Shown here piece by piece: positions 2,552-33,186 of a stretch of 64,000 bases of DNA (the first letter of the stretch is position 1; every line of letters begins with the position of its first letter). The notes under the pieces are model-generated. The model ran no database searches. It worked only from the letters and a program-made list of their open reading frames with translations, and had not been told where the DNA came from. The position numbers were made by a program, and so were the translations under genes. Where the stretch lies: assembly GCF_988243305.1 (NCBI RefSeq), contig NZ_OZ547136.1; one strand, written 5' to 3'.

Positions 2552-3730
2552 ATGAGTAATATTGTTTACCTGACAGTAACGGGAGAACAACAAGGAAACA
2601 TCTCCGCAGGTTGTGGGACTACTGAATCTATAGGTAATCGCTGGCAGAGTGGGCATGAGGATGAAATATTTACATTCTCACTCGCAAATAGAATTACTAA
2701 TACGGGACTTGGTTCACAGTTACAGGGTATGACATTTTGTAAATTAATTGATAAAAGCACTCCATTACTTATTAATTCCATTAACAATAATGAGCAATTA
2801 TTTATGGAATTTGACTTTTATAGAATCAATAGATTTGGTAGATGGGAAAAGTATTATTATATACAACTAAGAGGCGCTTTTTTATCGGCTATTCATCATC
2901 AGATCATTCAAAATCAACTGGATACAGAAACAATAACTGTTAGTTATGAATTTATCCTCTGTCAACATCTTATCGCAAATACCGAGTTCAGCTATTTGGC
3001 ACTCCCTGAAAATTATAACCGTTTGTTTTTACCAAATTCAAAAAACCAAACAAATAATCGTTTCAAAACTTTAAACAGCAAAGCTATTGGCAGGCTACTT
3101 GCTGCTGGTGGCGTATACAATGGGAACATTGAAGGATTCAGAGATACTGCGGAAAAACTGGGTGGAGATGCAATAAAAGGCTATGATCAAATACTAAATG
3201 AAAAAACAGCGGGCATAGCGATAGCAACAGCATCTATTCTTTTAACAAAGCGTTCTAATGTTGATACATATACAGAAATAAATAGTTACTTAGGCAAACT
3301 TAGAGGTCAACAAAAACTTCTTGATGGTATAGACATAATAGAAATAATATACATTAAGAGACCTTCAAAAGACTTAGCTAACTTACGAAAGGAGTTTAAT
3401 AAAACTGTAAGAAAAAATTTTCTTATCAAACTTGCAAAAACCTCCGAAGCATCTGGAAGATTCAACGCCGAAGACCTTTTAAGAATGAGAAAGGGCAATG
3501 TTCCTCTAAATTATAATGTTCACCATAAACTATCTCTAGATGATGGTGGTACTAATGATTTCGAAAATTTAGTATTAATCGAAAACGAACCATATCATAA
3601 AGTTTTTACTAACATGCAATCACGAATAGCTAAGGGAGTATTAGTAGGTGAAAGCAAAATCACTCCCTGGGCCATTCCATCTGGCTCAATTTATCCTCCC
3701 ATGAAAAATATTATGGAACCCACAAAATGA
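2552..3730 (+). CDS. yhhZ: Hcp-domain protein with a C-terminal HNH-like nuclease motif (T6SS-type polymorphic toxin)
   Basis: 392 aa; N-terminus IVYLTVTGEQQGN...EDEIFTFSL...KLIDKSTPLL fits the Hcp pattern; C-terminus has NVHHKLSLDDGGTNDFENLVLIENEPYH; AT-rich coding sequence. Confidence 0.85.
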   Translation: MSNIVYLTVTGEQQGNISAGCGTTESIGNRWQSGHEDEIFTFSLANRITNTGLGSQLQGMTFCKLIDKSTPLLINSINNNEQLFMEFDFYRINRFGRWEKYYYIQLRGAFLSAIHHQIIQNQLDTETITVSYEFILCQHLIANTEFSYLALPENYNRLFLPNSKNQTNNRFKTLNSKAIGRLLAAGGVYNGNIEGFRDTAEKLGGDAIKGYDQILNEKTAGIAIATASILLTKRSNVDTYTEINSYLGKLRGQQKLLDGIDIIEIIYIKRPSKDLANLRKEFNKTVRKNFLIKLAKTSEASGRFNAEDLLRMRKGNVPLNYNVHHKLSLDDGGTNDFENLVLIENEPYHKVFTNMQSRIAKGVLVGESKITPWAIPSGSIYPPMKNIMEPTK

Positions 3731-6854: not shown

Positions 6855-7295
6855 ATGAAACGACTTCTGATTCTTACGGCACTCCTGCCGTTTGTCGGCT
6901 TTGCACAGCCCATTAATACTCTGAACAACCCTAACCAGCCGGGGTATCAGATCCCCAGTCAGCAGCGGATGCAAACCCAGATGCAAACGCAGCAAATCCA
7001 GCAAAAAGGGATGCTGAATCAGCAACTGAAAACGCAAACTCAGTTGCAACAACAGCATTTAGAAAACCAGATAAACAATAATTCACAGCGGGTGTTGCAG
7101 TCACAGCCGGGGGAGCGAAATCCCGCCCGGCAGCAAATGCTGCCCAACACCAACGGCGGGATGTTAAACAGCAACCGTAATCCGGATAGTTCGTTGAATC
7201 AGCAGCATATGCTGCCGGAGAGGAGAAACGGCGACATGCTGAATCAGCCCGGCACGCCGCAGCCTGATATACCGTTGAAAACTATTGGGCCGTAA
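6855..7295 (+). CDS. yhhA: Secreted Gln/Asn-rich protein YhhA (DUF2756)
   Basis: 146 aa with an N-terminal signal peptide and a low-complexity Q/N-rich body; 14-bp overlap with the convergent ugpQ. Confidence 0.85.
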
Positions 7296-18672: not shown

Positions 18673-19056
18673 ATGAAGCTGACCATCATTCGATTAGAAA
18701 ACTTTAGCGACCAGGACCGGATTGACCTGCAAAAGATCTGGCCGGAGTATTCCCCTTCCTCTTTACAGGTTGACGATAACCACCGTATCTACGCCGCGCG
18801 TTTTAACGAGCGCCTCCTAGCGGCCGTGCGGGTAACCTTAAGCGGCACCGAGGGGGCACTGGATTCTCTACGTGTGCGGGAAGTCACCCGCCGTCGCGGT
18901 GTGGGGCAATATCTGCTGGAAGAGGTTTTGCGTACCAATCCTGGCGTTTTAGGCTGGTGGATGGCGGATGCTGGCGTGGAAGATCGCGGTGTGATGACGG
19001 CGTTTATGCAGGCGCTGGGGTTTACGGCACAACAGGGCGGCTGGGAGAAGCGTTAA
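18673..19056 (+). CDS. panM: PanD maturation factor (PanZ/PanM)
   Basis: 127-aa ORF MKLTIIRLENFSDQDRIDLQKIW... matching E. coli PanM/YhhK. Confidence 0.9.
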   Translation: MKLTIIRLENFSDQDRIDLQKIWPEYSPSSLQVDDNHRIYAARFNERLLAAVRVTLSGTEGALDSLRVREVTRRRGVGQYLLEEVLRTNPGVLGWWMADAGVEDRGVMTAFMQALGFTAQQGGWEKR

Positions 19057-19580
19057 TCGCTCTGTGTAAAAAGCAGTTCAATGGATTTGGTTGGGAAAAA
19101 TAACGCATTTTCGTTTTCTCCGACCAGCGGGATAAAGCCCAGCGACTGATAAAACGTATGGGCTTTTTCATTCAGCGCCTCGACAAAAAGACCGTGAATA
19201 CCTACCGCTAAAGAGGCTGACCAGACGACTTTCATGGCATGAGCAACCAGTGTTGCTCCCCATCCCTGTCCCTGTAATGAACGATCAATTGCCAGACGCC
19301 CAAGAGTGACGCTGGGAATATTTTTGTAGGGAATTTTTTTCTGTTTCGATTTCGAGGGCAATGCGGCTCGTTCAAAACAACTGCCGGATAATGTGTAATA
19401 TCCCAGGACCTGACGTTCTGGAGTGTTGCGACAAAGGATATACGCTCGCAGAATTTTATTGCGATGTTGACGAATCAGATGTGCCGTCAGAAAGAGATTT
19501 AACGCTTCCTCGCCGCAGTCGAATCGCTGTAGATCATAATCTGCATCATCGGTCAGAATCTCTATCGTCAGATCATCCAT
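19053..19580 (-). CDS. ataT: GNAT-family acetyltransferase toxin of a type II TA system (AtaT/TacT/ItaT family)
   Basis: 175-aa ORF MDDLTIEILTDDADYDLQRFDCGEEALN...; immediately downstream of a DUF1778-like gene; resembles AtaT of E. coli O157 as recalled. Confidence 0.75.
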   Translation of the reverse strand: MDDLTIEILTDDADYDLQRFDCGEEALNLFLTAHLIRQHRNKILRAYILCRNTPERQVLGYYTLSGSCFERAALPSKSKQKKIPYKNIPSVTLGRLAIDRSLQGQGWGATLVAHAMKVVWSASLAVGIHGLFVEALNEKAHTFYQSLGFIPLVGENENALFFPTKSIELLFTQSD

Positions 19581-19586
19581 AAATGA

Positions 19587-19853
19587 TTACATTCCCTGAA
19601 GACGTTTTGTCGCACGTTTTAGCTTTTCACCTGGCGACGGTGGATTACTCAGCGCATCCATCACCCGCGTCCAGGATTCCTCATTGAGGATCACCCGCCG
19701 ATGCTGTTCAATCACTTCCGCAGCCCGCTGCGAAGCGCTGTTCAACATAAATTGGCTGACGGACTGATTAGATATCGCTGCCGCTTCCTCAATCATACTT
19801 TTGTCATCGTCAGTTAAACGCAGATCGATACGCTGCTTTTTAACAGCAGACAT
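19587..19853 (-). CDS. ataR: DUF1778 antitoxin (AtaR/TacA family)
   Basis: 88-aa ORF MSAVKKQRIDLRLTDDDKSMIEEAAAISNQSVSQF...; upstream of and co-oriented with the GNAT toxin gene. Confidence 0.75.
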   Translation of the reverse strand: MSAVKKQRIDLRLTDDDKSMIEEAAAISNQSVSQFMLNSASQRAAEVIEQHRRVILNEESWTRVMDALSNPPSPGEKLKRATKRLQGM

Positions 19854-21106: not shown

Positions 21107-21321
21107 CCTGAGGTTCCCCATTCTTCTGGTTATTACGTGTGTTGTGATGTTGTTGTTCAGCACTTTATTTCGTTTTATGCATAACTACCCGTGCTTTAGC
21201 AGCATACTCTGCTAAAACATACCCGATTTTTATGATATTGGAATAGCTATTTTGACAGTTTATTAACAATCTGCGTGGGGATTGGCGTTTTGCCGGAGGG
21301 GGAAACTGATTATTGCAGAGG

Positions 21322-21358
21322 CCCAAAAAACAAAAACCCCGGATTCTCATCCAGGGTT
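21322..21358 (-). terminator. Rho-independent terminator after rpoH
   Basis: AACCCTGG-atgagaat-CCGGGGTT hairpin followed by TTTTTGTTTTTTGGG on the minus strand. Confidence 0.6.
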
Positions 21359-21377: not shown

Positions 21378-22232
21378 TTACGCTTCAATGGCAGCGCGAA
21401 GTTTTTTCATCGCGTTCTTTTCCAGCTGGCGCACACGCTCAGCGGAAACACCGTAACGGTCAGCCAGTTCCTGCAACGTGGACTTGTTGTCTTCGTCCAG
21501 CCAGCGCGCGCGGATGATATCCTGGCTACGCTCGTCCAGACCTTGCATCGCGTCGGTCAGACGGTTTGCCGCCTGCTCTTCCCAGTTATCATCTTCAATG
21601 CCGTCAGCAAAGTTAGATGATTTATCCTGCAGATAGAGCACCGGAGCCATCGGCTGGCTATCGGAATCGTCGTCGGAAGACAGGTCAAAGGTCATGTCCT
21701 GTGCCGCCATACGCGATTCCATCTCAAGTACGTCTTTGCTGGTTACGCCCAGTTCACGGGCCACCATTTCGACTTCATCCTGGTTAAACCAGCCCAGACG
21801 CTGCTTGGTTTTACGCAGGTTGAAGAACAGTTTGCGCTGCGCTTTGGTGGTCGCAACTTTGACGATACGCCAGTTACGCAGAACGTATTCGTGGATCTCT
21901 GCTTTGATCCAGTGGACGGCGAAGGAGACCAGGCGCACACCCACTTCCGGGTTAAAACGGCGCACTGCTTTCATCAGGCCGATGTTACCTTCCTGAATCA
22001 AATCCGCCTGTGGCAGGCCATAGCCCGCATAATTACGAGCAATATGAACAACAAACCGCAGGTGAGACAGGATCAGCGTTTTAGCTGCTTCCAGATCGCC
22101 ATGGTAATGCAGCTTTTCAGCCAGCGCCCGCTCCTCGTCAGCCGACAACATCGGCCACGCGTTAGCTGCCCGGATGTAAGAATCCAGGTTGCCAACTGGG
22201 GCTAAAGCTAAACTTTGCATTTTGTCAGTCAT
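21378..22232 (-). CDS. rpoH: RNA polymerase sigma-32 (heat-shock sigma factor)
   Basis: 284-aa [30 protein letters not shown]... matching RpoH. Confidence 0.97.
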
Positions 22233-26700: not shown

Positions 26701-26702
26701 CC

Positions 26703-27062
26703 TTATTGTTCGCCTACAAAGCTGACAAAGCGCGTTCCTTTATAGCTCAGCGTACCTTTATCGCCCACTGTCAGGGCGTGGTACTGCTGGGCGTCGAGGC
26801 GAAACGTCTGCTCCATTCCTCCGCTTTGCGGTTTGAAGCTTGCCTCATAGCGCATACTGGTGCCTGCCGGAGTCACTTCCTGCTGGCGCGAACGGCGATC
26901 GTTAATCGGTTTTTCCCGCTTATTGCTCACCACCACCAGCTTTTGCTGGAGCGGTGCCATATCATTATCAGCTTTTTCCCGTCGTTGTTGCATAAAACGA
27001 AACGATGCGGCGACGACAATTAAGCCAATGATAACAATAAAGAAAAGAGGTGGTTTGCTCAT
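26703..27062 (-). CDS. yhhM: DUF2500 membrane-anchored protein
   Basis: 119-aa ORF with one N-terminal TM helix; convergent with yhhL. Confidence 0.85.
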   Translation of the reverse strand: MSKPPLFFIVIIGLIVVAASFRFMQQRREKADNDMAPLQQKLVVVSNKREKPINDRRSRQQEVTPAGTSMRYEASFKPQSGGMEQTFRLDAQQYHALTVGDKGTLSYKGTRFVSFVGEQ

Positions 27063-30669: not shown

Positions 30670-31335
30670 ATGAACGTTTTCTCGCAAACTCAACGCTATA
30701 AGGCGTTGTTCTGGTTATCGTTATTTCATCTTCTGGTGATCACCTCCAGTAACTATCTGGTTCAGCTTCCGGTCTCCATTTTTGGTTTTCATACCACCTG
30801 GGGCGCGTTTAGCTTTCCGTTTATCTTTCTCGCTACTGACCTGACCGTGCGTATTTTTGGCGCACCGCTGGCCCGTCGTATCATCTTTGCGGTGATGATC
30901 CCGGCGTTGCTGATCTCCTACGTCATCTCGTCGCTGTTCTATATGGGCTCCTGGCAGGGATTCGGCGCACTCGCTCACTTCAACCTGTTTGTCGCCCGTA
31001 TCGCCACCGCCAGTTTCATGGCCTACGCGCTGGGCCAGATCCTCGACGTGCACGTTTTTAACCGCCTGCGTCAGAGTCGCCGCTGGTGGCTGGCACCAAC
31101 AGCTTCCACCCTGTTTGGGAACGTCAGCGACACGCTGGCCTTCTTCTTCATTGCCTTCTGGCGCAGCCCCGATGCCTTTATGGCTGAACACTGGATGGAA
31201 ATCGCGCTGGTCGATTACTGTTTCAAAGTGTTAATCAGTATCGTTTTCTTCCTGCCAATGTATGGCGTATTACTCAATATGCTGTTGAAAAGACTGGCAG
31301 ATAAATCTGAAATCAACGCTTTGCAGGCGAGTTAA
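30670..31335 (+). CDS. yhhQ: Queuosine precursor (preQ0/preQ1) transporter, COG1738
   Basis: 221-aa polytopic membrane protein matching YhhQ. Confidence 0.92.
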   Translation: MNVFSQTQRYKALFWLSLFHLLVITSSNYLVQLPVSIFGFHTTWGAFSFPFIFLATDLTVRIFGAPLARRIIFAVMIPALLISYVISSLFYMGSWQGFGALAHFNLFVARIATASFMAYALGQILDVHVFNRLRQSRRWWLAPTASTLFGNVSDTLAFFFIAFWRSPDAFMAEHWMEIALVDYCFKVLISIVFFLPMYGVLLNMLLKRLADKSEINALQAS

Positions 31336-31407
31336 AGGTTCGTGATCAGAGTTGTGATAAGATGGATGAATGAGCCGTTATGGCCGTTTATCGAAAGGAA
31401 GAAGTCA

Positions 31408-31965
31408 ATGCGCAATCTGGTTAAATATGTCGGAATTGGCCTGCTGGTTATGGGGCTTGCGGCCTGTGATGATAAAGACACTAACGCTACGGCGCAGGGT
31501 TCGGTCGCGGAAAGTAACGCTACCGGGAATCCCGTCAACCTGCTTGATGGCAAGTTAAGTTTCTCGCTGCCAGCGGATATGACCGACCAGAGCGGTAAGC
31601 TGGGAACGCAGGCCAATAACATGCATGTCTGGTCCGACGCCACCGGGCAGAAAGCAGTCATCGTCATCATGGGCGATGACCCGAAAGAAGATCTGGCGGT
31701 GCTGGCGAAGCGTCTGGAAGATCAGCAACGTAGCCGCGATCCGCAGCTGCAAGTGGTAACCAATAAAGCCATTGAGCTGAAAGGTCACAAAATGCAGCAG
31801 TTAGACAGCATTATCTCCGCGAAAGGCCAGACGGCGTACTCTTCCGTTATTCTGGGTAACGTGGGTAATCAACTGCTGACCATGCAAATTACGCTGCCCG
31901 CTGACGATCAGCAAAAAGCGCAGACCACCGCAGAAAACATCATTAATACGCTGGTTATTCAGTAA
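31408..31965 (+). CDS. dcrB: Periplasmic lipoprotein DcrB
   Basis: Start placed at [22 protein letters not shown] (lipobox LAAC) after AAGGAAGAAG; 185 aa. Confidence 0.9.
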
Positions 31966-31968
31966 GTT

Positions 31969-33186
31969 TTAAGATGATGAGGCGGCCTCAGGGACGTGTT
32001 CCGGAGGCCGTTTTTTTAATCGCCACGTCAGTAATAACGCGATTGCGACCAGTCCCGCCGCCGCCAGATAAATCACCGGTACGCCCGCCCAGCTCATCAC
32101 CAGCCCAGCCAGTGGTCCGGTCACGCCAAGCGATAAATCCATAAATACGGTGTAAGTTGCCAGCGCCGCCCCCTGATTTTGCTGCGGAACCGCTTTTACC
32201 GCCACTACACCCAATGCAGGGAACACCAGCGAAAACCCTGCCCCCGCCAGTAAGACGCCGATTTTCGCCATCCACGGCATAGTCGCCACGCCAACCAGTA
32301 GCAGGCCGATTATCTCAACGCTAAAGCAAATCATCGCCACGTTTAAGCCGCCGATACGGTTAATACCATTAGGGAATAACAAACGCGTACCGACAAACGC
32401 ACAGCTAAACAGCGTCAACGCGAAAGCCGCACCGTCCCAACCTTTAGCGTCATAAAACAGCGTGATAAAGGTGGCGATGACGCCAAATCCGGCGGAAGCC
32501 AGTGCCAGCGCCATACCGTACAGCCAGACGCGCCCAAGCACCGCGCGAAACGGCAGCGGTTTGCCTTTACTGGCTTTTACCGTCGGACGCGGGATCGCCA
32601 ACAAAATGGCCACCAGCGCCACGCCCATAATGATTAACGCTAACGCCTGCAAGCCGCCCCAGTGATAAAACACGACACCTAACGGCGCACCCATCGCCAT
32701 CGCCCCGTAAGTGACAATGCCGTTCCACGAAATCACCCGCCCGATATGCAGCGAGCCAACCACGCCAACGCCCCACAGGGTCGATCCCGTTCCGGCAAAA
32801 CTTTGCCCAATCCCAAGGATGACGCGTCCCAGGCAAAGTAATAACAGGCTGATGACGGGCAGACTGGCGGTTAATCCTGCCGTCAGATATCCCAAACCGC
32901 TCAAAAAGCAGCCGCATAAACCGAAGACGACAATCTTTTTGGGGCCCAGCAAATCGGCGTAACGTCCGGCATGAGGGCGGCTCAGCAAGGTGGCGAAATA
33001 TTGCAGGCTGATAACCAATCCTGCCCAGAAAGCGCTAAAGCCCATCACATCATGGACATAGCCCGGTAATACAGCGAGCGGCAACCCGATGGTGAGGTAG
33101 CTGGCGAAGTTAAACATGACAATGGAGACAATGCGCAAATTCAGGCGCAATCCGTTTAGCGCGGGTTCGGCTACGGGTTCGGGCAT
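31969..33186 (-). CDS. yhhS: MFS-family transporter
   Basis: Start placed at MPEPVAEPALNGLRLN (405 aa); 12-TM-type membrane protein. Confidence 0.9.
   Translation of the reverse strand: MPEPVAEPALNGLRLNLRIVSIVMFNFASYLTIGLPLAVLPGYVHDVMGFSAFWAGLVISLQYFATLLSRPHAGRYADLLGPKKIVVFGLCGCFLSGLGYLTAGLTASLPVISLLLLCLGRVILGIGQSFAGTGSTLWGVGVVGSLHIGRVISWNGIVTYGAMAMGAPLGVVFYHWGGLQALALIIMGVALVAILLAIPRPTVKASKGKPLPFRAVLGRVWLYGMALALASAGFGVIATFITLFYDAKGWDGAAFALTLFSCAFVGTRLLFPNGINRIGGLNVAMICFSVEIIGLLLVGVATMPWMAKIGVLLAGAGFSLVFPALGVVAVKAVPQQNQGAALATYTVFMDLSLGVTGPLAGLVMSWAGVPVIYLAAAGLVAIALLLTWRLKKRPPEHVPEAASSS
31983..32017 (+). terminator. Rho-independent terminator after dcrB, embedded in the 3' end of the convergent yhhS coding region
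   Basis: CGGCCTC-agggacgtgttccg-GAGGCCG hairpin followed by T7 on the plus strand. Confidence 0.55.

What the first reader, a model, noticed from the sequence alone, without database searches (positions are those of the whole stretch)
31969..32017. Terminator of dcrB embedded in the coding 3' end of the convergent yhhS
The hairpin plus T7 that should terminate dcrB on the plus strand lies within the last roughly 15 codons of yhhS on the minus strand (encoding ...KKRPPEHVPEAASSS). The same sequence therefore serves as coding sequence on one strand and terminator on the other. Similar tight convergent overlaps occur at yhhA/ugpQ (14 bp) and panM/ataT (4 bp).
Basis: seen in the sequence. Interest (0 to 1): 0.2.

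Follow-up and report, generated by a model that had tools for sequence, protein, structure and literature searches.

The report
dcrB terminator inside yhhS coding end
The stem-loop and T-run that should end transcription of the E. coli gene dcrB lies inside the last 13 codons of the oppositely oriented transporter gene yhhS, and cross-species comparison shows the RNA hairpin, not the protein tail, is what selection preserves; the arrangement itself is an ordinary, already catalogued kind.

Summary
In this E. coli window, dcrB (+, 31408-31965) and yhhS (-, 31969-33186) have stop codons 3 bp apart. A 28-nt hairpin (31983-32010, -17 kcal/mol) plus T7 (32011-32017) starts 17 nt after the dcrB stop. 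It covers yhhS codons L390-A402.

- **Covariation:** in 56 distinct Enterobacteriaceae sequences the 12-bp stem is 94% paired, and 8 of 12 pairs show compensatory changes.
- **Strand:** G·U pairs occur almost only on the dcrB strand (54 vs 3).
- **Codons:** yhhS codons under the arms and T-run are frozen at synonymous sites (AAA AAA in 52 of 52). The residues under the inner stem and loop are hypervariable.
- **Natural experiments:** genomes that lost yhhS keep the hairpin and T-run. Kosakonia, which has a separate intergenic terminator, lacks the YhhS tail.

Published Term-seq lists contain no 3' end at the hairpin. Rho-dependent termination regions lie about 230 nt further on the + strand, and inside antisense dcrB on the - strand.

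The class is known: dcrB-yhhS is listed among E. coli convergent "excludons". Interest is low.

The parts
31408..31965 (+). dcrB coding sequence (185 aa lipoprotein, Pfam DcrB); stop TAA at 31963-31965
31966..31982 (+). 17-nt spacer between the dcrB stop and the hairpin. It contains the complement of the yhhS stop (31969-31971) and of the SSS codons. Its sequence diverges freely between species.
31983..31994 (+). 5' arm of the terminator hairpin (CGGCCTC-A-GGGA). It corresponds to yhhS codons A402 (first base) to V398.
31995..31998 (+). tetraloop CGTG
31999..32010 (+). 3' arm of the hairpin (TTCC-G-GAGGCCG). It corresponds to yhhS codons E396, P395, P394 and R393.
32011..32017 (+). T7 (U-tract) of the terminator. 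It corresponds to yhhS codons K392 and K391 (AAA AAA) plus the third base of L390 (TTA).
31969..33186 (-). yhhS coding sequence (405 aa MFS transporter); stop at 31971-31969
31972..32010 (-). YhhS C-terminal tail RPPEHVPEAASSS. It is hydrophilic, follows TM12 and the RLKK anchor, and is specific to lineages with the embedded terminator.
32018..32340 (+). C-rich, G-poor untranslated + strand RNA (C/G about 1.8), antisense to yhhS. It contains the published Rho-termination peak (MG1655 3610794, which maps to window position about 32247). Probably a Rho backstop for read-through.
31440..31600 (-). Approximate position of the published Rho-dependent termination region for - strand RNA (MG1655 3610066, about window 31519), antisense to dcrB. 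This is the likely end of yhhS transcripts.

Best explanation
The element is the Rho-independent (intrinsic) terminator of dcrB.

**Mechanism.** RNA polymerase transcribing the + strand passes the dcrB stop. It then synthesises a GC-rich 11-12 bp hairpin (31983-32010) followed immediately by U7 (32011-32017) and releases the transcript there (inferred from anatomy and conservation). Read-through RNA is untranslated and C-rich, and is probably cleared by Rho about 230 nt further on.

**Consequence for yhhS.** The two stop codons are only 3 bp apart, so the whole terminator sits in the last 13 sense codons of the convergent yhhS. Selection in this stretch acts on the + strand RNA structure and T-run. 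The YhhS C-terminal tail (KK-R/W-PP-xxxx-EA-x-SSS) is largely a translated by-product of the terminator.

**Direction.** The terminator works one way only. On the - strand the hairpin is weaker and has no U-tract, so yhhS transcripts run on into antisense dcrB and end by Rho. This produces the overlapping convergent transcripts already catalogued as an 'excludon'.
For: **Anatomy**
- Stem of 7+4 bp, tetraloop, U7 abutting the stem, 17 nt after the dcrB stop.

**Conservation**
- In 80 species loci, a hairpin plus T6-T8 sits 28-49 nt after the dcrB stop, usually at +46, in nearly all genera.

**Covariation**
- 93.9% of cells are paired, against 36-53% when the partner is slid.
- 8 of 12 pairs show double changes, and 0 of 500 shuffles reach any measure.
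- The closing pair is CG 40, UA 12, AU 2.

**Strand test**
- There are 54 G·U cells on the + strand against 3 on the - strand.
- The + hairpin is more stable in 43 of 56 sequences.

**Codon evidence**
- Lys-Lys is AAA AAA in 52 of 52.
- The preceding Leu is TTA or CTA in 96%.
- CGG/TGG/AGG, CCG, GAG and GCC are 98-100% fixed at third positions. TM12 codons with invariant amino acids vary freely at third positions.
- Residues 41-44 (inner stem and loop) show 7-10 amino-acid types.

**Natural experiments**
- yhhS is deleted in the E. cloacae group, Cedecea, Buttiauxella, Yokenella, R. terrigena and one more locus. The hairpin and T-run are kept in all of them: identical in three E. cloacae-group species whose spacers have diverged, and out of the former frame in Cedecea.
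- L068 has a 1-nt deletion that frameshifts the tail but keeps the hairpin.
- Eight species have an in-frame 9-nt shorter hairpin.
- In seven Kosakonia-type loci plus L060, a different intergenic A-tract/hairpin/T-tract terminator is used. There YhhS ends shortly after its last membrane helix, with no KKRPP..EA..SSS tail and the A7 run broken.
- Distant YhhS homologues align only to about residue 390.

**Experiment from the literature**
- + strand 3'-end reads drop from 171 (800 nt upstream) to 16 (800 nt downstream) of MG1655 3610794 in untreated cells.
- dcrB-yhhS is listed as a convergent excludon.
Against: - No dominant 3' end at the U-tract (expected near MG1655 3610560-3610566, + strand) appears in the curated Term-seq tables of Adams et al. 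2021, in three growth conditions. The files were not truncated.
- A bicyclomycin-sensitive (Rho) termination region is reported about 230 nt downstream on the same strand: Rho score 7.2, downstream reads 16 rising to 124 with BCM. So the hairpin is either leaky or not the only terminator.
- The E. coli version has an A·G internal mismatch. It is weaker (-17 kcal/mol) than the perfect 12-bp stems of Klebsiella or Raoultella (about -26 kcal/mol).
- One Salmonella arizonae locus has a degraded stem (-9 kcal/mol).
- Termination efficiency was not measured here.
Confidence: 0.82

Rival explanations
1. The hairpin is mainly a 3'-end stabiliser. dcrB transcripts are terminated by Rho about 230 nt downstream and trimmed back by 3' exonucleases to the stem-loop, which then protects the mRNA.
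For: A Rho termination region lies at MG1655 3610794 (+), downstream of the hairpin. The RNA between them is C-rich and rut-like. Dar & Sorek 2018 (PMC6061677, found) describe trimming of Rho-dependent transcripts; that description is from my own knowledge of the paper, whose supplements are not held here.
Against: A protective stem-loop needs no U-tract. Yet T6-T8 directly abutting the stem is kept in every locus with this hairpin, even at the cost of fixing AAA AAA and TTA/CTA codons in yhhS. Where the T-run is not needed (Kosakonia yhhS), the A7 run is broken. No trimmed 3' end was reported at the hairpin either.
Confidence: 0.08
2. Conservation reflects a functional YhhS C-terminal peptide motif (KKRPP...EA..SSS), and the hairpin is an incidental by-product of those codons.
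For: The reading frame through the tail is kept in more than 50 species, and indels are mostly in frame (9-nt deletion class). RLKK fits the positive-inside rule after TM12.
Against: - Synonymous third positions are frozen only under the arms and T-run.
- Radical R-to-W replacement co-varies with the pairing partner.
- The middle residues are hypervariable.
- The hairpin persists where yhhS is deleted or the tail is frameshifted.
- The tail is absent in Kosakonia and in distant homologues.
- G·U pairs are specific to the + strand.
Confidence: 0.02
3. The element acts in the yhhS mRNA (- strand). Possible roles are a bidirectional terminator, an A AAA AAA slippery site plus hairpin causing -1 frameshifting or ribosome stalling at KKRPP, or an exonuclease barrier that would leave a non-stop yhhS mRNA.
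For: On the - strand an in-frame A AAA AAA heptamer directly precedes a hairpin. The stop codon lies only 12 nt after the stem (seen in the sequence). yhhS transcripts seem to end by Rho further on.
Against: - The - strand hairpin is weaker (-18.9 kcal/mol, z = -1.8; 86% vs 94% paired and 3 vs 54 G·U cells).
- No U-tract follows it in any genus.
- The spacer between heptamer and stem is 0 nt, not the 5-9 nt typical of -1 frameshift sites (my own knowledge).
- The hairpin and T-run are retained in genomes without yhhS.
- No - strand 3' end is listed there.
Confidence: 0.04
4. Chance inverted repeat next to a T-run, or a copy of a dispersed repeat such as REP, with no function.
For: None beyond the fact that the simple scanner did not flag it.
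Against: It is unique in the window and expected 0 times by chance. About 0.12 comparable hairpin+T7 sites are expected per 64 kb. It is conserved with covariation across about 60 species. There is no Rfam match.
Confidence: 0.01

Closest known systems
Canonical Rho-independent (intrinsic) terminators of E. coli
   Same: GC-rich stem-loop with a tetraloop, immediately followed by U7, a short distance after a stop codon. It acts on the nascent RNA of one strand.
   Different: It lies entirely inside the coding sequence of the convergent gene, so each base is also a codon position. The E. coli allele carries a 1x1 internal loop. No mapped 3' end has been found so far.
Convergent excludons / overlapping terminators (ExcludonFinder, PMC12288877)
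   Same: dcrB-yhhS (and yhhA-ugpQ, yhhL-yhhM) are listed among the 165 convergent excludons of MG1655. According to that paper, 146 of the 165 have predicted terminators lying within the neighbour's transcription unit.
   Different: That paper describes the overlap as involving the neighbour's 3' UTR or transcription unit. Here the terminator is inside the neighbour's ORF. The paper gives no per-pair sequence or evolutionary analysis.
Bidirectional intrinsic terminators between convergent genes (SEnd-seq work of Ju et al. 2019; model in bioRxiv 10.1101/2022.10.23.513370)
   Same: One hairpin placed between or within a convergent gene pair. The Kosakonia dcrB/yhhS loci have exactly this A-tract/hairpin/T-tract form.
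   Different: The E. coli element has a T-run on one side only. The - strand version has no U-tract and a weaker stem, so it is unidirectional.
arfA-type hairpin inside an ORF that yields non-stop mRNA (my own knowledge)
   Same: A stable hairpin lies in the last codons of an ORF, just upstream of its stop codon.
   Different: There is no evidence here of cleavage or termination of yhhS mRNA at the hairpin. Conservation follows the opposite strand, and the element survives loss of yhhS.

Membership tests
Intrinsic (Rho-independent) terminator | GC-rich stem-loop in the nascent RNA | tested here: met
   7+4 bp stem with a tetraloop, -17.2 kcal/mol alone. Other genera have 12-bp perfect stems of -23 to -28 kcal/mol.
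Intrinsic (Rho-independent) terminator | U-rich tract immediately 3' of the stem | tested here: met
   T7 at 32011-32017 abuts the stem. T6-T8 is present in all loci with this hairpin.
Intrinsic (Rho-independent) terminator | Located downstream of a gene end on the same strand | tested here: met
   The stem starts 17 nt after the dcrB stop. The T-run is at +46 to +52 in most species.
Intrinsic (Rho-independent) terminator | Structure under selection on the transcribed strand | tested here: met
   8 of 12 pairs are compensatory, and 93.9% of cells are paired against about 50% when slid. G·U cells number 54 on + against 3 on -.
Intrinsic (Rho-independent) terminator | Transcript 3' ends mapped in the U-tract | tested here: inconclusive
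   No such 3' end appears in the curated Term-seq tables of Adams et al. 2021. + strand 3'-end reads do fall 171 to 16 across the region. Other data sets are not held.
Intrinsic (Rho-independent) terminator | Termination independent of Rho | not testable with these tools
   This needs in vitro transcription or 3'-end mapping with and without BCM at single-nucleotide resolution. A Rho region lies about 230 nt downstream.
Bidirectional terminator | Hairpin flanked by an A-tract upstream and a T-tract downstream, so both strands read hairpin plus U-run | tested here: not met
   After the stem the - strand reads CCUCAUCAUCUUAAAAC. No U-run is present in other genera. The Kosakonia loci do meet this feature.
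Convergent excludon | Overlapping transcripts of a convergent gene pair | tested here: met
   The pair is listed in Table 1 of PMC12288877, meaning it was found in at least 50% of 58 RNA-seq sets. This is a literature result, not re-computed here.
Overlapping genes (CDS-CDS overlap) | Two coding sequences share nucleotides | tested here: not met
   The dcrB and yhhS CDSs are separated by 3 bp. Only the terminator overlaps yhhS.
REP / dispersed palindromic repeat | Multiple copies of a shared palindromic consensus | tested here: not met
   There is a single copy in the window at up to 3 mismatches and one place per genome in E. coli.
-1 programmed frameshift site in yhhS | X XXY YYZ heptamer followed at 5-9 nt by a stable structure, with a conserved -1 frame product | tested here: not met
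   An A AAA AAA heptamer is in frame, but the spacer is 0 nt. The - strand hairpin is the weaker one. The element persists without yhhS. The spacing rule is from my own knowledge.

The most novel reading that the evidence does not exclude
The embedded hairpin might also act on yhhS expression. One route: Rho-terminated yhhS mRNA is trimmed back to the hairpin, whose base lies 12 nt before the stop codon, leaving an arfA-like non-stop message. Another: the in-frame A AAA AAA run plus hairpin and the KKRPP motif cause ribosome slippage or stalling. Either way, dcrB termination and YhhS synthesis would be mechanistically coupled. A milder version is well supported: the YhhS tail is a translated terminator whose residues co-vary (R393/W with A,V/T,I,M at 402) because of RNA base pairing.
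Probability: 0.04. Interest if true: 0.55.

Novelty: already known. Interest (0 to 1): 0.2.

Why it matters
- **Annotation and engineering.** The last 13 codons of yhhS cannot be altered or deleted without touching the dcrB terminator. Likewise, yhhS knock-outs that remove its 3' end may change dcrB and antisense RNA levels.
- **A clean example of layered constraint.** An RNA-level constraint overrides a protein-level one. Synonymous sites are frozen, an Arg/Trp replacement is driven by a base pair, and a protein tail disappears when the terminator moves elsewhere.
- **A caution for sequence analysis.** Stretches like this can mislead codon-based selection tests and residue-coevolution analyses.

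None of this changes current understanding of termination or of convergent gene pairs.

Tried and rejected
**Searches for direct 3'-end evidence**
- TERMITe supplements had no dcrB or yhhS rows.
- SMRT-Cappable-seq supplements had none either.
- The supplements of Dar & Sorek 2018, the 3'-seq comparison preprint and ExcludonFinder are not held.
- Ju et al. 2019 is not held under the id I tried.
- Only Adams et al. 2021 gave usable data.

**Checks that gave nothing**
- The simple consensus terminator scan did not list the site because it allows no internal loop. My own scan with ViennaRNA recovered it.
- The Rfam search of 31300-32400 gave no match.

**Readings considered and rejected**
- REP-like repeat: single copy.
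- Bidirectional terminator: no - strand U-tract.
- Protein-motif conservation: ruled out by synonymous-site, deletion and frameshift evidence.
- -1 frameshift signal: wrong spacing and wrong strand asymmetry.

**Not attempted**
- I did not pursue which state is ancestral (embedded vs intergenic terminator) beyond noting the distribution. The single genome-collection scan kept only the 80 closest loci, all apparently Enterobacteriaceae (one MAG is labelled only Proteobacteria).
- Structure prediction of YhhS was judged unnecessary.

Full report
**1. What is there**

The window is E. coli chromosome. The 2-kb stretch around the finding is present in 5425 of 5426 complete E. coli genomes. It is identical to K-12 MG1655 across the hairpin.

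RefSeq annotation of a 99.8%-identical strain and of MG1655 gives the following:
- dcrB lies on the + strand at window 31408-31965.
- yhhS lies on the - strand at 31969-33186 and encodes 405 aa.
- The two stop codons are 3 bp apart.

The + strand then reads CGGCCTC-A-GGGA-CGTG-TTCC-G-GAGGCCG (31983-32010), followed by T7 (32011-32017). On the - strand the same bases encode L390 K K R P P E H V P E A A402. S S S and the stop codon follow.

The hairpin alone folds at -17.2 kcal/mol. The 76-nt context folds at -28.1 kcal/mol, z = -3.15.

A hairpin this strong abutting T7 is found once in the window. About 0.12 are expected per simulated 64-kb window on both strands. The element is single-copy and matches no Rfam family.

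**2. Comparative evidence**

Using a DcrB alignment, I fetched 80 dcrB loci from different species. All appear to be Enterobacteriaceae, though one MAG is labelled only Proteobacteria.

In about 55 of them the dcrB and yhhS stops are -7 to +6 bp apart. These span Escherichia, Salmonella, Citrobacter, Enterobacter, Lelliottia, Leclercia, Klebsiella, Raoultella, Trabulsiella, Phytobacter, Pluralibacter, Siccibacter, Franconibacter and others. In each, a hairpin plus T6-T8 lies in the last yhhS codons. In most, the T-run sits at +46 to +52 from the dcrB stop.

On a gap-free alignment of 56 distinct sequences, the 12-bp stem gave these results:
- 93.9% of cells are paired, against 36-53% when the 3' partner is slid by 1-3 columns.
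- 8 of 12 pairs show changes on both sides.
- No shuffle out of 500 reaches the observed values.
- The closing pair occurs as C-G (40), U-A (12) and A-U (2).

In yhhS, the closing-pair variants correspond to CGG (Arg), TGG (Trp) or AGG (Arg) at residue 393. The partner is the first base of codon 402, giving Ala/Val with G, Thr/Ile/Met with A, and Ser with U. An Arg/Trp replacement in the protein is thus explained by a base pair in the opposite-strand RNA.

**3. Which strand, and which layer, is selected**

G·U pairs are tolerated in RNA but become A·C mismatches on the complementary strand. There are 54 G·U cells on the + strand and 3 on the - strand. The + strand hairpin is the more stable one in 43 of 56 sequences, with mean -20.6 vs -17.8 kcal/mol. 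The - strand has no U-run after the stem in any genus.

At the codon level, in 52 species:
- The two Lys codons are AAA AAA in all 52.
- The preceding Leu is TTA or CTA in 96%.
- The third positions of CGG/TGG/AGG, CCG, GAG and GCC are 98-100% fixed.
- TM12 codons with invariant amino acids vary freely at third positions.
- The four residues under the inner stem and loop show 7-10 different amino acids.

The conserved residues of the tail are therefore exactly those dictated by the T-run and the outer stem.

**4. Natural experiments**

- **yhhS lost, hairpin kept.** In eight loci no yhhS lies downstream of dcrB, yet the hairpin and T-run remain. These are three E. cloacae-group species, Cedecea, Buttiauxella, Yokenella, Raoultella terrigena and one more.
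  - In the E. cloacae group the hairpin is identical in three species while the spacer in front of it has diverged.
  - In Cedecea a 5-nt loop puts the former 'EA' arm out of frame.
- **Frameshifted tail.** One species (L068) has a 1-nt deletion that changes the YhhS tail to KKSPRLNNRRP*, with the hairpin kept.
- **Shorter hairpin.** Eight species have an in-frame 9-nt shorter version with 8 bp.
- **Terminator elsewhere.** Seven Kosakonia-type loci and one other (L060) use a different intergenic A-tract/hairpin/T-tract terminator. There YhhS ends shortly after its last membrane helix (in the Kosakonia-type loci after WRLK, e.g. WRLKQKPVLEG*), without the tail and with the A7 run broken.
- **Distant homologues.** YhhS homologues at 35-49% identity align only to about residue 390. 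Their tails are short and unrelated.

The tail itself is hydrophilic and follows the last hydrophobic segment.

Together these results say the hairpin plus T-run belongs functionally to dcrB. The YhhS tail is largely a passenger.

**5. Experimental data available**

Adams et al. 2021 (PMC7815308) is the only held data set with rows for this locus. The MG1655-to-window offset is 3,578,547.
- **Term-seq.** The curated tables, covering three conditions and not truncated when stored, contain no 3' end at the hairpin. The only dcrB row is an ORF-internal end at 3609992, about window 31445.
- **+ strand Rho region.** The Rho-termination table lists 3610794 (+), about window 32247, antisense to yhhS. 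Reads upstream/downstream were 171/16 untreated and 183/124 with bicyclomycin. The Rho score is 7.2, p = 1e-15.
- **- strand Rho region.** The same table lists 3610066 (-), about window 31519, antisense to dcrB. Its Rho score is 3.2.

The + strand RNA beyond the U-tract is C-rich and G-poor for about 320 nt, which fits a Rho loading region.

My reading is that most + strand RNA ends before about 32250. The hairpin is probably the primary but leaky stop, backed up by Rho. yhhS has no intrinsic terminator and ends by Rho inside antisense dcrB. This part is inference, and the missing Term-seq peak is the main weakness.

ExcludonFinder (PMC12288877) lists dcrB-yhhS, yhhA-ugpQ and yhhL-yhhM among 165 convergent excludons of MG1655. 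It states that 146 of them have predicted terminators within the neighbour's transcription unit.

**6. Comparison with known kinds, and novelty**

The element meets the sequence and evolutionary criteria of an intrinsic terminator. It fails those of a bidirectional terminator, a REP element, a CDS-CDS overlap and a -1 frameshift signal (see membership table).

Terminators lying within a convergent neighbour are a known and frequent arrangement in E. coli, and this gene pair is already catalogued as transcriptionally overlapping. What I add is the evolutionary dissection: covariation, frozen synonymous sites, and the deletion, frameshift and relocation cases. That is a neat illustration, not a new kind of system.

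**7. Verdict**

- Direct 3'-end evidence is still lacking.
- The finding is ordinary, and interest is low (0.2).

Noticed in passing
window 31983-32010; E. coli loci L085-L088: Within E. coli the hairpin is dimorphic. A 101-nt query is at least 99% identical in 3937 genomes and 90-95% identical in 1473. In the three divergent strains I looked at, most or all differences fall inside the hairpin: GGGA/CGTG/TTCC (tail EHVP) against GGTA/CTTC or TTTC/CACC (tail VEVP/VEIP), plus a C/T variant at the closing pair. In FDAARGOS_1285 all 7 differences lie within the hairpin or the base immediately 5' of it, and the rest of the 101 nt is identical. All alleles still fold at about -16 to -17 kcal/mol. 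This may reflect clustered compensatory change or a small conversion or template-switch event in a quasi-palindrome.
   Followed up: partly
window about 31445 (MG1655 3609992, + strand): Adams et al. 2021 report a Term-seq 3' end 37 nt inside the dcrB ORF (in the signal-peptide region), found in at least two conditions. It is not Rho-dependent (Rho score 0.5) and has a low intrinsic-terminator score. Its origin is unexplained.
   Followed up: no
window 7282-7295 and 19053-19056: yhhA/ugpQ CDSs overlap by 14 bp, and panM and the ataT-like GNAT toxin ORF overlap by 4 bp. Neither junction has a hairpin plus T-run terminator on either strand, so these pairs must end transcription in some other way.
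   Followed up: partly
window 19053-19853: An AtaT-like GNAT toxin ORF (175 aa) and an AtaR-like antitoxin ORF (88 aa) lie between panM and livJ. They are absent from the otherwise 99.8%-identical strain 2012C-4221, where the livJ-panM gap is 199 bp. This looks like a strain-variable insertion.
   Followed up: no
window about 26701-26704 (mapped from L082 5350-5353): yhhM and yhhL are convergent with only a 2-bp gap in the RefSeq annotation of the related strain. The pair is also listed as a convergent excludon. The coordinates were not re-checked in the window.
   Followed up: no
loci L052, L062, L063, L067, L070, L073, L075 (Kosakonia-type) about 20-50 nt after the dcrB stop: In these loci dcrB is followed by an intergenic AAAAA-GGGAACC...GGTTCCC-TTTTTT element, the classical bidirectional form. 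yhhS ends 45-1716 bp away with a short unrelated tail.
   Followed up: partly
locus L051 (Salmonella enterica subsp. arizonae) about 3074-3108: The hairpin has two adjacent disruptions (CGCCC.../...GAGTCCG, -9.1 kcal/mol). yhhS gives only fragmentary tblastn matches there. Gene and terminator may be decaying together, or this may be an assembly error.
   Followed up: no
window about 21290-21335, - strand: This is the strongest hairpin plus T-run in the window (-20.8 kcal/mol, 13-bp stem). It lies just downstream of rpoH (21378-22232, -) and is presumably the rpoH terminator.
   Followed up: no
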